From Ascidiella aspersa (taxonomy: Eukaryota), in assembly GCA_963924565.1 (NCBI GenBank), contig OZ004607.1:24738001-24802000 (forward strand): a stretch of DNA of 64,000 nucleotides. Direction: 5' to 3'. Both the position numbers and the translations under genes were made by a program. Below are positions 25,882 through 55,480 of the stretch, piece by piece (within the stretch, counting starts at the first letter, position 1; each line of letters starts with the position of its first letter). Under the pieces are notes generated by a model. The model was not told the DNA's origin. It saw only the letters and a program-made list of their open reading frames with translations, and searched no databases.

Positions 25882-27133
25882 TGCTTCAACTTGCTTAATT
25901 TTCACTAAACAGACATACATAAATAATAACCGTGGGTGCCTGCAAGTAGTACTAATAAATGATAAACAGGATACGCTAGTAATTTTGTATTATAAATGAC
26001 AACAGCTTTTTATTGATTTAAATTAAAATAGCAAATCAATTTAATGAGTCTGACACATTGTGCTAAATAGAGTTTAAACTTCTATACTGCGTGTTATGTA
26101 TAGTTTATGGTCTGAAGGTTTGACTTGTGTTCCTTTCGCAGCTCGCAAAATTGTCCAAGTTGCAACTTAAGTACTTTAGCAAAACAAATACGCCTTGTAA
26201 GGTATTTGTGAGCAGTGCGGTTAATAATCAACTAAGAGGCGGCCAGTCACTGTGGTGTTCTGAAAGATGGATACTGCGATATCGACTTGAAGCCAAATAT
26301 TTGCGCAATCCATCGCCTTTGAGCGAGTTTTCCCTAACTCTGTCGCTTGAGCACGTTTCTATTAGCTTCGGGTCGTTTATATTGATGACGAACGAACGAC
26401 CTGCCGTTATTTGCATTGTACCACCGAGTCGCGTGCTCAACACCAGCAAATTCCGGGACGACAAAAACAGATAAGGCACTTGAACCGCAATAAAATTTAT
26501 GACAATGAACTGGCAGGTTTAGGGCGTCGCGCGTTTCAGTGGAATTTTTGGATAGCCATTGCATTTAATAGAGGCATCACTCTATTTTAAAAAGAAAAAA
26601 ATTTTAAAAAGCAAATCCTTTCTCTATTTTAAAAAGCAAATCCTTTCATATTATGCAGTATAGCTTTCGGCCCAAATAAAAGTGTATATAGAGTGGCTGT
26701 AATGCGTAAATTGTTAATATTTATGCAAACAATATCCGAAAGTACAACACTCAGTATGTGCAAAAAAGGAAGTCATCTGCCTCTATACGCTTAAAAGCGG
26801 AAACGTATGATTAACGTCATATAATGCAAACACAAATGTCTCTCTGCAAATAAACGACACATTTGGGGATACATGCTCCAGTTTGTGTAAATATTTAAGA
26901 TAACACAGTGTTAGTTTAAACGACAGTGACTTTACTGCTGTTTCCTAAAAAGCAGTCCAGCTGTAGATTTAGAAATGGTTATGAATTATGAAGTCTTCAA
27001 AACAAAATGCTAAAACATGACATGTAACATAAAACTTTATCAGAATAGTGTGATAAAAGAAGATAACTTGTAGCAGAATTTTAAACAATAGTCCAATCGA
27101 ATCATCTTTCTGGTTGAAAATTAAATAACCATA

Positions 27134-28255
27134 ATGAGTCTACCCGCTGGTCATTATGTTGTAAGGCAACCACGTGGTCCTCCGGAACCTTCTTCAGGTG
27201 CTCCATCACAAGCATATCATCCTCCACCGGCTCCCACAAGAAGGCGAATGGGGTTCTTTACAACAGAAGGCGCTTCGACGAGCGCAAACCTGGGCAACGG
27301 AGTAAGTTCGTGTCGCCAAGCCCAGCGCTCGGAAGGCTTTGCACAATCTCGACGTCGTAGCATGGGTTCGGCCAGCAGAAACAGAAGGGCGAGAATAAGA
27401 ACGGAAAACCTCCCCGATTCGGTAATGGAATTTTTGCAATCCCTGGAAAACGATGAGTTAGCGGTTGAGTACGAGTCTTGGTTGGTGGATTACGGCGGTG
27501 AGTCTGATGTAAGCAGGCACAGTGTCATTCTACCATCACCGAGCGGTATGTCGGAACCTGCAGTAGCAACACCTATATCGCCATCACCAAGAGGTCATTT
27601 ATGCACGAGATACATTACAACCCTTATTCGTTATAAGGGCTACGTCTTTGTGGTCTTGGGTTCTGCGAGCGTAATGCTTCTTTTGATGGGAATCGCTTTT
27701 ATATCGAACAGCGCATCCTCTGCTGCACCCTTAACCGGTTTAGACGTGGACTTTGGAATCGCTATGTTGGTGATTGGTGGATGCTTTGTTGTCATCATCT
27801 GTATTGTTGAAGGATTTAGCTGGTGGCGTAAAAGCTCGCGATGCTCCAGTTTTCGCCGCTCTCCGCGTAGCAACGACTCCCATAATCAAAATGGTGGAGA
27901 AGCTTCAGAAAATGCCTTGCCGCCTATTCATTGTACGTTTGCCAGTGGGGCGCCACCTCCCATTGATTTTGACCCTGTCGTGGTCATAGACGACGTAAGT
28001 CGCGGGGCAAGTTTTTCAAGCAGGAAATCCAGCTGGACGTCCACGGGTACCAAGCCGCCGCCCTACAGCGAACATTTGCCTATAATAACTACCGCTCACA
28101 ACAACAGGTACCTGGTTGTACCGCTACGAAATAACAATCTGCACAATTTAGGAAGGAGAACTTTTAGTGACGCTAGGTGGCAACAAAGATTTCAAGCTAG
28201 TCGACCAATGCCCACAAGGCGAACCAACTCGCTGGGTAAAATAATGAGGCTGTAA
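27134..28255 (+). CDS. Intronless 373-aa two-TM protein with C-terminal PPxY motif
   Basis: ATG in good context (accataATG). TM1 YVFVVLGSASVMLLLMGIAFI, TM2 FGIAMLVIGGCFVVIICIV, motif KPPPYSE. AATAAA at ~28385. Confidence 0.8.
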   Translation: MSLPAGHYVVRQPRGPPEPSSGAPSQAYHPPPAPTRRRMGFFTTEGASTSANLGNGVSSCRQAQRSEGFAQSRRRSMGSASRNRRARIRTENLPDSVMEFLQSLENDELAVEYESWLVDYGGESDVSRHSVILPSPSGMSEPAVATPISPSPRGHLCTRYITTLIRYKGYVFVVLGSASVMLLLMGIAFISNSASSAAPLTGLDVDFGIAMLVIGGCFVVIICIVEGFSWWRKSSRCSSFRRSPRSNDSHNQNGGEASENALPPIHCTFASGAPPPIDFDPVVVIDDVSRGASFSSRKSSWTSTGTKPPPYSEHLPIITTAHNNRYLVVPLRNNNLHNLGRRTFSDARWQQRFQASRPMPTRRTNSLGKIMRL

Positions 28256-28497
28256 GTTAAATGCGATCTGCAAATCTAAATGCGAAACGACCATTTAACG
28301 GTCTACTCAAATGCCAATTTTAGTTTTTTAAATTGATTTTCGGTATTTTGCTTACAAGTGAATATTTTTTTCTAGAGCGAAATTAATAAAACTAAAAATG
28401 GTTCTATTTGCAAATATATTTACTTTCTTGTCTTAGTCAAATACTAGAGTTTCTTGTCTTAGTCAAATTCATTCATTCATAAGTTCTAGTCTTTAAC

Positions 28498-28538
28498 GGA
28501 AAAATATAATTCGCCAAAATATGGCATCATCAGTCTCT
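28498..28538 (-). ncRNA. Minimal type-I hammerhead ribozyme motif (degenerate core, GAAU)
   Basis: Minus strand reads AGAGA-CUGAUGA-U-GCCA-uauuu-UGGC-GAAU-UAUA-UU-UUUCC. Confidence 0.5.
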
Positions 28539-28584
28539 AGAAAAAACAACAACAAAACAATACAAACACGTAAACTGGGTTCCA

Positions 28585-28620
28585 CTGATGATTCCATATT
28601 TTGGCGAAATATATTTCTCT
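28585..28620 (+). ncRNA. Minimal hammerhead ribozyme motif lacking the 5' strand of helix I
   Basis: Plus strand reads CUGAUGA-U-UCCA-uauuu-UGGC-GAAA-UAUA-UU-UCUCU. Confidence 0.5.
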
Positions 28621-30682
28621 GTTAAAGTCTAAATTATATTGGCCAATATTTGAAGCCATTTTGTCGTCATTTACGTATAAGGGCGAGGATATATCTTCCT
28701 ATTTTACACATTCAGTTTGTCATGGTTCTATTGCCTTATTACTACAAAAGAAAATTTATTGACAAAATAGATTTGTTAGTACTTGTGTAAAATATACTAT
28801 TGTGTTGTTGTTTTTTCAATCAAGTGTAGTGGGTGCTGTCTTGAACTAACACCCGGACGAGCAGAAACGCAAAGATACCCGAACTAGTTATTTCTAATAC
28901 CGTAGCCTAATGGTTAGTCTGTAGTTCGTATTCTTTTTAAAAAAGTTTAAACCCATCTCCTTAAAAATCCCACTGAGTTCCAGCAAACCTTTCGACAAAG
29001 TAAGATCTTCACAAATGATTGCCCAAAATCTCTTCAACCTCCTAGTCCACGATATTCAGTTAACGAAGCACATTAGATGATATATTTTGAAACAATAATA
29101 TAAAACGATTTAAAATAAATCAAACATTTTTCTAGGTACACCAAAAATTATAGCGACGTTTTGTTATTGGTATTAAACTCTTTATGTTTGTTTTGTTCTT
29201 AAAACATAAATATAGGGCCTATGATTAACTGGATAAAACACAGTTTAAGAACAATTGGTTTAAAGAAAGTCTAGCTTTATAAAAGTAATAATTAAGGGCT
29301 TGCAAAATGTAAACGATATTCTATAAATTACACAGCGAATGAAATATAGACTGTTTTTAAGCCTAGTTATATCACAGAACTATTTTTATTAGAATATGAA
29401 AGGCTAAAATATTTCTGAACTTTACATGAAGTTAAACGTAAAACACAACACAGGATTTGAAATATATAGGTTTTATGGCACGTTTCAGTGGAATTACGGT
29501 AGGTTTCGATTGGCACGACAAAAGGCACACACTTAACATATTTGGCACAAGCAAAGAAATGGAATTTCTGGCTTATGGTTTCGAAAACCGTTGCAATACA
29601 TCTTTTTCATGAAATACATAGTGTAAAAAATGCAGACTTGGCAAGCAGCGACTGATTTTAGTGTTTTTCTCATTCAGGAAACAAAATTGTCATAAATTGA
29701 AAGAAATAGAAAGCTAAACACAAACCACAAGAGCGTTTTCAAAATGTGCAAAACATGTAAGGCTATTAACAATGGTATTAGCGGTAAAATATGGTTTTCT
29801 TTCGTTCTGTCAAGCTTCATTTTACGGTTTATCTGTTGCGAAAGTAAAGGCTGAGTAACATCGGCGAAAGAGGTTGTTTTGTTTTTGGCATTTCCGTCAC
29901 TTAAAAGAAAATCATAAACATGGAATAGAAGCTAATGCTCGAGTACATCGGTAATGTTGGTTGTTACTGACACATAAATATTTAAACGAGTTTCACGAAA
30001 AGTAAAATGTTTGATTGTGAAAACACTCACTTTTAGTGTAAACAGAGCCTACTTTTTTTAACAATTTTAAGTATTTTGTTTGTCATGGGCGGTGATGCGG
30101 TAAATATGTGGCTTAACAAAATTCTATCAACACAGTGATGAACAAATGGATGAAGACAAACAGGCATACAATCGATAATGCATCGCTACAAGAGAAAGCC
30201 CAAACCTTCCTAAAATAAATGTAAGTTGCATGACATGGCGATGACATGGTTAGGGATTAACGTTTTTAGAGCGCAATGTGTAAGGATAAGCCGAAGCAAA
30301 ACACCGATTCGGAAATGCGGGTAGCATTTGGAGCAATATTAATGCGACACACTCGGATAAGCGAAAGGAACCGTAGAGAAAAAGGGGGACTTCGACACCA
30401 CATTTGTACACTAAAGAAAAACATAAAAATTAATACCATTTGGTATTTTTTTTGTTATATCGTGTACTAGACAAGACGTAACTAAGTTATATAAATTAAA
30501 AGCTTAATATTGAATCATATAGGAAGGAACCGACAAACTAAACGAAAACCAATAAAGCTTAAATGGAGCATTGCCTTAAACAAAAAATGTTAGTTATAAT
30601 TGTCCGAACAGGTTCGCGCAAATGACAGAATCGTTTGAACAGACTTTGCCACAATCAAGCGTGATTATGGGTATACAAATAT

Positions 30683-33600
30683 TTATGCGTGATAAGCAAG
30701 GCTTCGGTGCAGGTTGGGGTTCTGACTATGGCGATTGCGACTTCTCACGGAAGTAAACATCATGTCGCAGCCCGGGACAGTGCATTGGTGCATCTCACGG
30801 AGGTGGACCGATTTAAAGTGAACTCTCAGCGTACCTTTGTTGCTGTACATTCGCTTACATATGCTGCACTGTACCGGGCCGGTTTTCCATGTGTTTCCTT
30901 CCATGCTCAAGGTAGGGTCGTCCATCTCTGTGACGTTGCTAAATGGCGACGACAAGCCACCCAGCATGGCTCTCTCAGCCTCACCGTTGATAAGGTCGGA
31001 TGACGACACTCCCATTTGTTGGGAGTCGTGGAAACCAGATGATGCCCGGTTGCTGTTGGCCGCGATCGCTGCTGCCCAAAACGTATTCATCCAATTTCTG
31101 TTGAGCAGGTTTTGATTTGGCAGCACGCCAGCTTGCGCGACTGTTGATACGGGTGGGAAAACGGGGGGAAACAATAGAGATTTTGTGGGAGGAAGAAGAC
31201 TGTTGTTCCACATCGGCATGAAGGCTGACGGCGTCTCTGTAGGAAAGAGTTTAGCGTAGGAAGAAAATGAGCTGTGTTGCATGGAAGATATGTCGGAAGC
31301 GTATTTGTACATCCCGAAATCACGTTGTGGTAGTCCTGCTTGAACAGAAAACCTGCGTTTCCAAACGCTGTCGTCTTGTATCTGATCATCGTCGGGTCGC
31401 ATAGTTTCAAACGGGGCAACAGGAGCCGATTTTCGTCGCTTGTGATCAAAATCAAGGGTGCCATGGTCTGGTGTTCTCATGTTGGCGTCACTAACATCGC
31501 GCTGTCGTTTTCTAGAAATTCCTGTTTCTTTCCAATCACCTGTTTGTGGTTTTATCTTGACAGTAGACGGTGACGGCGGATCAAGGCGAATTGAGGCGTT
31601 ATTATGTTCCCCAGTGCTATTTTCGCCGCGATTTGGTGTACCCACTTGCCTGCCAATTAAGTCTGGGTATTTACTCAATGGATTTTTAGAACAAGCACCA
31701 TCTAGTAGTTTGGTTGAAGGCGCAAGAAGGTTGACCAATGACGACGGTTGCGAAAAGTCGGCACAAGTGCGAGGAGCACCTAGGTTCCGCTCAAAAGGCG
31801 GTACAATAGTGCTGGTCGAGCGGCGCTTGATGCTATCAAAAACCCGAGGTGCTACCATTCGTGTTTCATCAACCGAAAGCTTTCGTCCGGCAGGATAAAA
31901 TTTCGAAAAGCTGCTGGTCTTGTCGGACGCTGTCGAGAAGCTGTTTGGTGAGTTTAACTGGAAAGGCAAGAAATTTGCTGAGCTGGACGTTGGAAAGTTG
32001 GCGGTGGAAAGCAAGTCCGGCTTGATGCTGTAAGCCTTCATCGCCTCAGCGAAAACCCTCTGATAAACTGCCATGAACTCGTCCGACGCTACAGAGGAAG
32101 AAGCTTTATCGCCTAAATTTGCGGACGCTTTATCTGCCTCGCAACGCTCGATCTTGCGCTGCTGGTGAGCTTGCTGGTGCTGACTTTCGCTTTCAAAGTC
32201 AGCTTTACTTCTCTGCGGTGTAGCCAGAACAGCCGAGGGTGTTTCCAATTCGGCGTTTTGCTCGCTGGAGCTGTTGTTGTCGTGGAAGCTGGAGACCGGC
32301 GACGGGCCGCAAAGTCCGGGAAGTAGTTGCTCCTTGAGCTTTTCCGTCATTCCGGTGGTTTGCGTGCTGATCCTCGGATCGCTGTACAGGCCGCGGAGAC
32401 GCAGTTTACTGCAAACAACCAAACTGCGTAAATCGAACTGAGAATAGCATCACATTCATTTTATTACAGCTTTGGGCAACAAAAAGCTCAATACTGCGTT
32501 GGAATAAATCGACAGTTGATATAGGCCAGATACAACTCGGTCAAAATTTACACGTCGACTAATATAGGTCAGAGTAATGAAGTATTTAATATTAGTATTA
32601 TTACCTGGAATTATTTAAAGTCAAATTAGCAAAAGTCGGCTTTTTTTAGATTTAAGGTATTGTTTGTGGAAGTCAGAAATCAAAGAAAAAATATATTTTT
32701 TTCATTCGGCATTGAATGTTTAGAAATAACGTCATTTTTTCAATTAAACTCTTTATTTTAAAAATCACTCAATTGTTTCAATCATGCACCGCGATTTTAG
32801 ATGGGCCATCATGGACCGCATTAAACTAGTCCACGTACCCCCAAGTGGTCCATGGAACCCAGTTTAAGAACCCCTGCACTATAATTTATCAATTGTCGCG
32901 TATAGACTACGAAATAAATTATTTTTAGGCCATGCATAAATAAGTTTATAATTTGTCGGTATTTTGTAGACCAGACCAGTGTTTATTAATCAAGTTTCGA
33001 TCGAACACTTGGGTTTGACAACGCTCTTTCACGGCTTCGACGCGAAAGTCATATAAAACATGAACAGCACGGACTACTTAAAGCTGTATCAACGATTATT
33101 TGAATTTTCTCACCTAAAGTTGCTATTATAAACAACAAAGAAACCCTTAGTAAAAATATAAAATTGACTCATATTACTAAAGCCTTGATTCTCACAATTA
33201 TTCATCGAAAAACAACGAGAGTATGGTCGCATGTACACAGAATGATTTTTTGTTTTTTTGTGACCATGCGAAAATGTGGGGTTCGACAGAAGCTTGGTAA
33301 ATGATGTAGGGGTTCGGTAGGGTAAAGCAAAGGTTCTACTGTCGTAGACATTTGGGTTTCACATACGCTGTGAATAAATACATTTATTTCTCATAGAAAG
33401 CTTGGCGCTCCACATGACTGAATTAAAATATGCAATGGTATCGAATTACACCCTTTTCTGACAATAGTCGAGTACACACATCGTAGTGGAAAATGTACAA
33501 TGTCAAAAAACTTAAAGTGGGCTACAGAGTGATTCACGTAAACCACGAAGCAAAGAGTGCAATAAACCCTGAGCATTGCAGCAGTTCAACTTATAGATAC

Positions 33601-53009: not shown

Positions 53010-55355
53010 GCTTAAAGAGGCCGAATGGCTTTATATCGTTACCAGTTTTTGTTACCTTTAACAAAGTATATGTTCTTTGGACCATATTGTTCATTTGAAA
53101 AAATAAAACGTTAGTTTTTTCTCCAACTCACAAAAAATAAGGAAAAGGAAATCATACTTCACGAGACATCTCCCCGTGGCATTCAAGTAAAAGGTTCATG
53201 CTTGATGCGCCTAATTCAAGAAAAATGTGACGATAAACGACTTGAACTTGTCCGTAATTGTCGTCCACGACAGCAAACTTGTCCCTAAAAGCTGTGATTT
53301 GGTGTTGCGTTGCCCTCGTGTTTAAAGAAAATTCGAGAAGACTTTGACAGTTCAGCGAAATAATGTCGCCAAAATTGACCGATTAAGGGCGCCTAATTAC
53401 ATAAAGTCTGTAAACTCTCGATTAGTTTTGATTTACCAAATACTTCGGCTATATTTAGCTTGCTGTCCGATGGCTGAAGTTGGTCGCTAATAGAGTCGTG
53501 GTATCCAGGGTAACTTTTTTGTTTTCCTAAAAATCGATATGCTTTAATTGTGCAGACAATTATTCAAACTTGCAGAAAATATGTCTTTGCACGCACACTG
53601 CAGCCACCCAAAATTTCCTAACCAGGGTGCAACGGCACACTGGGTGCCATTTTTTGTATATTAAAGAAATATTCCAAACTAGATATTCTTTGCTAGTAAG
53701 GGTTTGCTGAAGAATGTTGACATTGTAGCGCTGGAAAGTACAGATATCGATTTATTGCCCTATCGTATAGTAAGAAAGGTAACTTTTCCAGTAGATAGCC
53801 ATATTTCTGTCCTATAATGTATTTCTTTTTCGAGATTCTCCAATCAGATATTCCGGGGCCTTAAATTGATTAAAATATGTTTGAGCTGTTTATTAGGGCG
53901 GAGTATTTAATTGCGAACAAAAACTTTTTCAAAATATATGTCGTATTTTTCTACACTGTAAAAACTCGAACATAATTTATATTTTTTTTAGATATATTGG
54001 CAAGATAAAACAAATTGCTAATATGCTTAAATATTTCTTGTTCGATTCAACATAGAATATTACATTCTAATGTATTTTTTTCTATAATTGTATGAAAATC
54101 TAGGTTATAACAAAAATAAAAACAAAACTATTCCAATGACCTCATATTCGCCCAACAATACTAACGGACAAAATCAGTCAAAAATAATGCTTTACCATGC
54201 AAGTCGTATTTGTTTTACATTATGTTTAAATATGTGATATATTCAACCAAATAGTAACCAATCAAGAAACCATTTCGAAATATGTCGATTCATCCCCGGG
54301 TGTAATATTTATCTCACAAAATGGCTGTAACATTCTTATAAAGTCAACAAGGCACTGTGCATATATCACATTATCGCAAGGGACGCGTAGAAGATATAAA
54401 ATGCGCAGTTCAGCGAGAGAATTTTATGTACGTTATAAGCGACATTGTATACACCGCTCAGTAATGTACTCCCCTGAGTGTTGCGACGAGATACACATAA
54501 AATACAAGTTCAGACAATTTTGGAGCATCCCTTCGGAATTGAGTTACCAGCCAACGCATATTGAAATCGTGTATCTTGCAAGAGCTTGTATTTTAAAGAA
54601 AAACTGTAGAAATAAGATAGGGAGCCTAAAATTGTTTTGTTAAGGCTAAATACTTGGTAAATAAATAAAATCAAACCAAAACAAACTAAGCGTTGTTTAG
54701 AAGTGAGGACGGCGAGACGCACTAAAGGTAAACATTTAAACCGAGAATTTCGCTACAAAATATCTCTCCTACGCGCATCCAAATATAATTTATACTAATT
54801 GTTGATCATTTGGTGCCAGGCAACGCCTAGACACGGTCATACCCACACAGAGGATACGGTCATAAAATAAACATGGGACGGAACGCATACTTAAACCTGC
54901 TGGTAAATTTTTACAATAAAAACATTATTAACCCAAAGAAACTCGCACGCTTCAATTACCTACGCATATTGTTAACCTTACCCCATTTTGCAATATTTAA
55001 AATGACCTTAAACAAAAGCGTGTGTTATTCATGTTTAAAGTGCTTCGCCAGGTGATTAGGAATTTTTTGCATTTGTAATTGAAAATAACTTCCAAGATAA
55101 CAAAAAAATATGTCGCCTTTAATCATGTTTCTGGTAACTTTATAATCAAAATTATTGAGTATGCCGAACGACAAACTTATGGCTCATAAATTTTCAATTG
55201 CTATAGAATTTTAAAAATTAAGTGGATTGTTAAGTAATACGAAAGATATATTTTGGTGTAAGTTGGTCGATTACTGTCATTTTTGCCATCAATTCAACGT
55301 AAGTCGATTTTGCCCCTTTTAATTCTTATTTTGTTTAAGTTAATATTCATTCGAC

Positions 55356-55480
55356 TTTTCTGAGTTAGTCAAAGTCAGTTAATAAGTTCTAGTCTTTTAA
55401 AAGAAAAATATATTTCGCCATAAAATAGGGCGTCATCAGTCTCTAGAAAAAATATCAACACAACAATGCACACACGTAAA
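55356..55480. mobile_element. Second copy (single arm) of the hammerhead-bearing repeat
   Basis: taagttctagtctttt...tttcgcca...tcatcagtctctagaaaaaa...cacgtaaa aligns colinearly with 28480-28574. Confidence 0.8.
55402..55444 (-). ncRNA. Minimal type-I hammerhead ribozyme motif, apparently intact
   Basis: Minus strand reads AGAGA-CUGAUGA-C-GCC-cuauuuuau-GGC-GAAA-UAUA-UU-UUUCU. Helix I AGAGA/UUUCU is fully paired (one GU), loop III is palindromic, and the cleavage triplet is AUU. Confidence 0.65.

What the first reader, a model, noticed from the sequence alone, without database searches (positions are those of the whole stretch)
28450..28637. Back-to-back inverted hammerhead motifs placed between two convergent genes
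Seen: a ~150-bp unit has ~50-bp inverted arms. One arm gives a minus-strand hammerhead motif (28498-28538, core variant GAAU). The other gives a plus-strand motif (28585-28620, GAAA intact, but missing the AGAGA helix-I strand). The unit lies ~100 bp past the AATAAA of the plus-strand 2-TM gene and just beyond a candidate minus-strand AATAAA (~28754-28759) that could end the BNC 3' UTR. A 19-bp direct duplication (tttcttgtcttagtcaaat, 28424 and 28450) abuts it. Known: Penelope-like elements often leave inverted pLTR arrangements. Inference: read-through transcripts from either gene would meet a ribozyme motif or a long hairpin, so this could act as a bidirectional terminator or dsRNA source. 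Both motifs carry lesions, so it may simply be a relic.
Basis: partly seen in the sequence, partly recalled or inferred. Interest (0 to 1): 0.7.

Follow-up and report, generated by a model that had tools for sequence, protein, structure and literature searches.

The report
Decayed head-to-head Penelope retrotransposon stub
This is a 315-base remnant of a Penelope-type jumping gene, one of hundreds in this genome, whose two back-to-back self-cutting RNA motifs are both damaged and predicted to be inactive, so it is likely ordinary mobile DNA that happened to land between two genes.

Summary
The inverted arms and both hammerhead motifs are real, but the unit is larger than reported. It is a 315-bp insertion (28409-28723) flanked by a 9-bp target-site duplication. 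It consists of two head-to-head 3' ends (pseudo-LTRs) of a Penelope-like element whose RT + GIY-YIG frame lies elsewhere in the genome.

The intact core pattern occurs 190 times genome-wide. Head-to-head pairs are common in this family (28 of 50 loci not chosen for pairing), mostly with one short and one tailed end (34 of 37), as here. This layout is published for Penelope elements, and this scan noted it before at three other places in this genome.

Both motifs here are broken: A15.1>U plus helix I changes on the minus strand; helix I lost plus G10.1>U on the plus strand. Read-through RNA is predicted to bury them in a 48-bp hairpin. The insertion is present in three samples, shows no deficit of variation, and no locus-specific RNA was seen in a shallow run.

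One oddity: it landed in a 40-nt gap between two convergent AATAAA hexamers (0 of 37 sister loci; 0.36% of random points). That is untested and expected occasionally by chance. Verdict: ordinary relic.

The parts
28400..28408 (+). Left copy of the 9-bp target-site duplication (11 bp if the two bases shared with the element end are counted)
   Evidence: such a repeat occurs at 26 of 20000 random 315-bp intervals
28409..28581 (-). Minus arm: 5'-truncated 3' pLTR copy of a Penelope-like element, ending at the family's short end (about +103 from the hammerhead), without tail
   Evidence: 81% identical to the 3' end of the RT + GIY-YIG element in L073; alignment with natural copies
28424..28468 (.). 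19-bp tandem duplication (period 26) inside the minus arm; not seen in the nine aligned relatives; origin by slippage at a short shared word is inferred
28498..28538 (-). Minimal type-I hammerhead motif, damaged: A15.1>U (28509) and two changes in the 3' strand of helix I (28501, 28498); helix II intact
28584..28723 (+). Plus arm: pLTR copy truncated inside the hammerhead, with an internal deletion of about 42 bp near 28626, running through the family's tail to the long end (about +186)
   Evidence: alignment; family copies and loose read ends stop at 28723
28585..28620 (+). Minimal type-I hammerhead motif, damaged: 5' strand of helix I lost and G10.1>U (28593); helix II does not form even in the isolated motif
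   Evidence: helix II pair probabilities at most 0.006, against 0.99 in an intact copy
28724..28732 (+). Right copy of the target-site duplication
28385..28390 (+). Candidate poly(A) hexamer of the plus-strand gene, 130 nt after its stop and 18 nt before the insertion; use not shown
28755..28760 (-). Candidate poly(A) hexamer of the minus-strand zinc-finger gene, 31 nt before the insertion; use not shown, and a nearer one lies at 29385
27125..28255 (+). Host frame of 376 aa with two hydrophobic segments; no family and no homologue found, but likely a real gene
   Evidence: 10 of 11 listed differences in one diverged contig fall on third codon positions, 9 silent
30683..32449 (-).

Best explanation
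This is an old 315-bp insertion of two head-to-head end fragments of a Penelope-like retrotransposon, flanked by a 9-bp target-site duplication, whose two hammerhead motifs are damaged and predicted to be inactive, so it is likely an inert passenger between the two genes. Shown: the boundaries, the duplication, the parent element with an RT + GIY-YIG frame 357 nt upstream of the same motif, the family-wide head-to-head layout with one short and one tailed end, and the lesions. Inferred: the element's endonuclease made staggered nicks about 9 bp apart. Each nick primed reverse transcription on a pLTR copy, one from the tail end (+186) and one from the short end (+103). Both copies stopped early and were joined head to head. 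The arms later gained four substitutions, a deletion and a small duplication without selection for cleavage. The position between convergent genes is inferred to be chance insertion into AT-rich intergenic DNA.
For: Family: 72 matches from 40 scored of 470 candidates; 190 exact core-pattern matches, 0 for the reversed control. Parent: 551-aa frame with RVT_1 (E 8.9e-5) and GIY-YIG (E 0.0024), both below Pfam's curated cut-offs; the window arm aligns to its 3' end at 81%. Layout: 7 close pairs among the first 100 listed exact matches, all head to head, 75-548 bp apart; 28 of 50 loci not chosen for pairing are head to head and none of 69 was classed tail to tail; short + long end in 34 of 37 and a TSD of at least 9 bp in 20 of 37, against 25 of at most 3000 control intervals. 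Decay: the arms are 78-81% identical (medians) to other copies, at best 87-88%; cores buried in read-through folds. Variation inside the element in sample X2 (2 in 136 and 3 in 159 bases) is not lower than in the flanks (8 in 608; 14 plus 2 gaps in 2107). Literature: inverted pLTRs with a TSD and a tail on one arm (PMC3846280, passages); dual minimal hammerheads 100-700 bp apart on opposite strands, single motifs inactive (PMC4209133, parts 1-2 of 4); a PLE enzyme nicks and extends both strands (PMC11167929, passages).
Against: The insertion sits in what was a 40-nt gap between convergent hexamers, seen in 0 of 37 sister loci and 101 of 28232 random points. It is present in all three samples that cover a junction (X1, X2, X7) with no empty allele seen, though X7 depth there is only 2-3; this fits drift or selection alike. 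RNA evidence is too shallow to show that the locus is silent (about 6% of one run). No cleavage assay was possible. The insertion mechanism is inferred from end patterns only; self-priming on an antisense template is the alternative proposed in PMC3846280.
Confidence: 0.85

Rival explanations
1. Passive effect on 3' ends. The ribozymes are dead, but the insertion separated two poly(A) sites that were 40 nt apart. It now supplies U/GU-rich downstream sequence (including the duplicated 19-mer) and a 48-bp hairpin, which could reduce sense-antisense overlap or yield some dsRNA or small RNA.
For: Geometry: hexamers 18 and 31 nt from the two insertion edges, 40 nt apart without it; rare among controls (0 of 37; 0.36%). 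Strong hairpin. The plus-strand frame looks like a real gene. No empty allele seen.
Against: Hexamer counts in the intergenic DNA equal chance (4 observed vs 4.6 expected; 2 vs 2.65). With several hundred family copies, about one such placement is expected by chance, and the locus was picked after the fact. RNA depth is zero at 27801-28500 and 28801-30000; the zinc-finger gene's putative UTR is covered only down to 30001 (very shallow). No conservation excess.
Confidence: 0.1
2. Co-opted bidirectional ribozyme terminator: each gene's read-through RNA is cut by the hammerhead on its strand.
For: One motif on each strand downstream of each gene. A PLE hammerhead can be protein-assisted, so weak motifs may cut in vivo (PMC11167929, passages).
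Against: Both motifs have lesions at conserved positions; the plus motif has no helix I and no G10.1-C11.1 pair. Minimal PLE hammerheads need a second copy on the same strand, and each transcript has one (PMC4209133). The antisense arm is transcribed first and pairs the core. No cluster of read starts or ends (shallow). The layout is common family-wide.
Confidence: 0.03
3. A hairpin element that moves as a unit (MITE-like), or a microRNA-type precursor, with the hammerhead likeness incidental.
For: Long inverted arms; weak Rfam hits to microRNA hairpin models.
Against: Arm lengths and inner junctions differ at each locus while the outer ends are fixed and asymmetric. The arms are the 3' end of an RT + GIY-YIG element. 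The Rfam hits are far below gathering scores (31.9 vs 144 bits) and reflect generic hairpin pairing.
Confidence: 0.02

Closest known systems
Inverted-pLTR insertions of endonuclease-containing Penelope-like elements (Adineta vaga Pen2/Pen2a, PMC3846280; general layout in PMC8557442)
   Same: Head-to-head pLTRs, 5' truncation, a tail on only one of the two ends, a TSD of about 8-10 bp, and a parent with RT followed by a C-terminal GIY-YIG domain.
   Different: This copy has no coding sequence left. The family's tail is about 80 bp rather than the 30-40 bp described. Family TSDs found here run 10-14 bp.
Minimal type-I hammerheads of metazoan PLE pLTRs (PMC4209133)
   Same: CUGANGA and GAAA core, an extra base between positions 9 and 10.1, a 5-bp helix I, a palindromic segment in place of helix III, many dispersed single copies, and pairs on opposite strands 100-700 bp apart.
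   Different: Helix II is 4-5 bp rather than 7-8 bp as in Schistosoma. The predicted cleavage triplet ends in U. Both window copies have core lesions. Rfam has no hammerhead hit for the window or for an intact pair.
Non-LTR retrozymes (bioRxiv 10.64898/2026.07.22.740005, part 1 of 5 read)
   Same: Non-coding, hammerhead-bearing derivative of a PLE pLTR.
   Different: Retrozymes are head-to-tail tandem arrays with an intact hammerhead in each unit; this is a single inverted pair with broken motifs.

Membership tests
C-terminal EN+ Penelope-like element (remnant) | Parent ORF with RT followed by a GIY-YIG endonuclease | tested here: met
   L062 551-aa frame: RVT_1 E 8.9e-5 and GIY-YIG E 0.0024, both under curated cut-offs; window arm 81% identical to its 3' end. 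No full-length copy was recovered.
C-terminal EN+ Penelope-like element (remnant) | pLTR containing a hammerhead motif downstream of the ORF | tested here: met
   Motif 357 nt after the stop codon in L073
C-terminal EN+ Penelope-like element (remnant) | Inverted, 5'-truncated pLTR copy with a tail at one end only | tested here: met
   Window ends at about +103 and +186; the same asymmetry in 34 of 37 loci
C-terminal EN+ Penelope-like element (remnant) | Target-site duplication around the whole unit | tested here: met
   9-11 bp at the family-defined ends; chance 26 of 20000
C-terminal EN+ Penelope-like element (remnant) | A 5' pLTR or partial tandem in a full-length copy | not tested
   L073 is 5'-truncated and shows no second pLTR; longer copies were not pursued
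Neptune or Nematis clade of PLEs | CX2-5CxxC zinc-finger linker between RT and EN | tested here: met
   A CxxCxxC motif precedes the GIY-YIG domain in the L062 translation; motif definition from PMC8557442
Neptune or Nematis clade of PLEs | RT phylogeny placing it in the clade | not tested
   No tree was built
Active minimal hammerhead (window copies) | Intact core: CUGANGA, GAAA, A15.1-U16.1 and G10.1-C11.1 pairs | tested here: not met
   Minus motif A15.1>U; plus motif G10.1>U
Active minimal hammerhead (window copies) | Helix I of 4-5 bp | tested here: not met
   Plus motif keeps 1 bp; minus motif has a wobble and a mismatch
Active minimal hammerhead (window copies) | A second same-strand copy for the dimeric fold | tested here: not met
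   One motif per strand at the locus; the next minus-strand copy is 27 kb away
Active minimal hammerhead (window copies) | Self-cleavage | not testable with these tools
   Needs an assay
Non-LTR retrozyme | Head-to-tail tandem units, each with an intact hammerhead | tested here: not met
   Head-to-head pair; no same-strand pair within 3 kb among the first 100 listed exact matches

The most novel reading that the evidence does not exclude
A Penelope stub inserted exactly between two convergent poly(A) signals that were 40 nt apart, and was kept because it insulates the two genes' 3' ends. It would give each a new U/GU-rich downstream element and a long hairpin, while its ribozymes decayed. That would be a transposon domesticated as a 3'-end spacer rather than as a ribozyme.
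Probability: 0.07. Interest if true: 0.5.

Novelty: new member of a known kind. Interest (0 to 1): 0.1.

Why it matters
As an ordinary relic it matters little. It confirms in one more animal genome that back-to-back hammerhead pairs are the routine footprint of Penelope insertion and should not be read as designed terminators. The family itself, with many young TSD-flanked head-to-head copies and fixed short and long ends, would be a convenient dataset for the still open question of how Penelope elements make inverted ends. If the 3'-end spacer reading held, it would be a small, testable case of transposon co-option at a convergent gene junction.

Tried and rejected
Rfam: nothing at gathering threshold in the window; only generic microRNA-hairpin and snoRNA hits at E up to 5 in the element and in an intact pair, so Rfam neither supports nor refutes the minimal motif.

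The 19-bp repeat as a TSD: rejected; it lies inside the minus arm.

Sister-species empty site: runs X3, X4 and X5 gave no contig over the junction, and no eukaryotic relatives are held in the genome search. No RNA holder was listed by the run search; the one raw RNA run was added by species label.

RNA run X8: 36 reads laid, 34 only partly, mostly from other family copies (loose ends); it cannot show expression or silence of this locus.

Homologue search for the plus-strand protein: 0 of 4734 candidates at E up to 0.001, near lengths only. The Atlas look-up gave no result for either neighbour.

Two other loose hammerhead-like patterns in the window (14699, 47023) were not followed.

Literature search for a Penelope hammerhead acting as a terminator between convergent genes: one search, 7 papers listed, none on this by title or start of abstract. 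This is not a thorough negative. No supplements were read.

Full report
Observation. They fold into a hairpin of about -53 kcal/mol that none of 200 shuffles matches. Each arm carries a minimal type-I hammerhead motif, minus strand 28498-28538 and plus strand 28585-28620. The 19-bp duplication is exact. Rfam reports no hammerhead here or in an intact sister pair. I read the motifs against the features listed in PMC4209133 (parts 1-2 of 4 read).

It belongs to a large repeat family. A DNA search of the own genome gave 72 matches from 40 scored of 470 candidates. An exact pattern for the intact core gave 190 matches, with 0 for the reversed control. Two of the first 30 pattern loci carry a GIY-YIG frame directly upstream of the motif. 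Searching with it found L062, a 551-aa frame with RT followed by GIY-YIG; both Pfam hits are under the curated cut-offs. The hammerhead lies 357 nt after that frame's stop, and the window's minus arm aligns to this 3' end at 81%. A CxxCxxC linker before the endonuclease points to the Neptune or Nematis type as defined in PMC8557442 (passages); no tree was built.

True anatomy of the locus. Aligned with nine natural copies, the minus arm runs from about 28581 down to 28409, the family's short end. The plus arm runs from 28584 to 28723, the family's long, tailed end, with a deletion of about 42 bp. Reads and contigs from other copies also stop at 28723. A 9-bp direct repeat (11 with two shared bases) sits exactly outside these ends at 28400-28408 and 28724-28732. 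Such a repeat occurs at 26 of 20000 random 315-bp intervals. The 19-bp duplication is therefore internal to the minus arm and is not the target-site duplication.

The back-to-back layout is common in the family. Among the first 100 of 190 exact matches there are 7 pairs within 3 kb, all head to head. In one search, 39 of 69 non-redundant loci were classed head to head and none tail to tail. Eleven of the 39 are among loci I had fetched for showing paired or multiple matches; among the 50 loci not chosen for pairing the count is 28. For 37 loci with readable outer ends (35 of the 39, dropping L020, L022, L026 and L029, and adding L049 and L068), 34 have one short and one long end. Twenty have a TSD of 10-14 bp, against 25 hits in at most 3000 control intervals. 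Truncation inside the hammerhead's 5' strand, as in the plus arm here, recurs at L010, L021, L026 and L081. Inverted pLTRs with a TSD and a one-sided tail are described for Adineta elements (PMC3846280, passages). Dual minimal hammerheads 100-700 bp apart on opposite strands are described in PMC4209133. Three earlier notes of this scan reach the same reading at other places in this genome; I did not check that they concern the same family.

Mechanism. Inferred, not shown: staggered nicks by the element's endonuclease each primed reverse transcription on a pLTR, one from the tail end and one from the short end. Both products were truncated and joined head to head. A purified PLE enzyme nicks and extends both strands and starts reverse transcription at sites matching the tail (PMC11167929, passages). 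Because both arms copy the same segment, two pLTR templates or a fold-back step are needed; PMC3846280 proposes self-priming on an antisense template.

The ribozymes are predicted dead. The minus motif has A15.1>U and two helix I changes. The plus motif has lost the 5' strand of helix I and has G10.1>U, so helix II does not form even in isolation (pair probability at most 0.006, against 0.99 in an intact copy). Minimal PLE hammerheads were inactive as single motifs in vitro (PMC4209133), and each transcript here has one. In read-through RNA from either gene the antisense arm comes first, and the core is predicted paired (P(unpaired) 0.001-0.002). The arms are 78-81% identical (medians) to other copies, so the insertion is old relative to the young subfamily.

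Population and RNA data. Contigs of X1 (possibly the assembled sample) and X2 span both junctions. Raw reads of X7 run from the flank into the element with no loose ends, at depth 2-3. No empty allele was seen. X2 differs at 2 of 136 and 3 of 159 bases inside the element, against 8 of 608 and 14 plus 2 gaps of 2107 in the flanks: no sign of constraint, on small counts. In the one RNA run (about 6% read), depth is zero at 27801-28500 and 28801-30000 and 0.5-1.9 at 30001-30700. Of 36 laid reads, 34 fit only in part; those over the element run on into other family copies. This is too shallow to show silence.

What speaks against a pure relic. The plus gene looks real: two hydrophobic segments, and 10 of 11 listed differences in one diverged contig at third codon positions, 9 of them silent. 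Among 11 other alleles only 3 are third-position, and no homologue was found. Its AATAAA lies 18 nt before the insertion and a minus-strand AATAAA lies 31 nt after it, so the two were 40 nt apart before insertion. None of 37 sister loci and 101 of 28232 random points show this. However, hexamer counts in this intergenic DNA match chance, a nearer minus hexamer exists at 29385, and with hundreds of copies about one such placement is expected. If both hexamers are used, the mature RNAs end before either core, which again leaves no role for cleavage; at most the insertion could act as a passive spacer.

Verdict. An ordinary, decayed inverted-pLTR stub of a Penelope-like element, a new member of a known kind, interest 0.1. 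The boldest open reading, a co-opted 3'-end spacer, has about a 7% chance.

Noticed in passing
window 55353-55480 (-): A second, single copy of the same family with a near-intact motif (helix II keeps its pairs, helix I has one wobble); 76% identical to the parent's 3' end.
   Followed up: partly
L062 / L073 (G000:C5 about 16.41 Mb): 5'-truncated Penelope-like element with a 551-aa open frame (RT, CxxCxxC linker, GIY-YIG). The genome holds at least 150 matches to this endonuclease region, from several families at 40-95% identity.
   Followed up: partly
L031-L079, family-wide: The young subfamily has fixed outer ends at about +100-105 and +179-189 from the hammerhead, i.e. a tail of about 80 bp, longer than the 30-40 bp described for other PLEs, and TSDs of 10-14 bp.
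   Followed up: partly
L005 about 1766 and L011 about 130: A different hammerhead-like motif (longer helix II, short palindrome after GAAA) occurs in two flanks, suggesting a second hammerhead-bearing repeat family.
   Followed up: no
window 27125-28255 (+): Orphan 376-aa frame with two hydrophobic segments and proline-tyrosine motifs in the tail; no Pfam family and no homologue at near lengths, but a third-position bias in one diverged contig.
   Followed up: partly
window 28540-28562 and 28795-28817: A (CAA/AAC)-rich stretch inside the element is complementary to a T/G-rich stretch 70 bp outside it (87% over 23 nt); probably low-complexity chance.
   Followed up: no
L050-L053 (G000:C2 5.54-5.57 Mb): Four near-identical loci, each with a family insertion beside a 200-aa frame: a local segmental or tandem gene duplication that carried the insertion along.
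   Followed up: no
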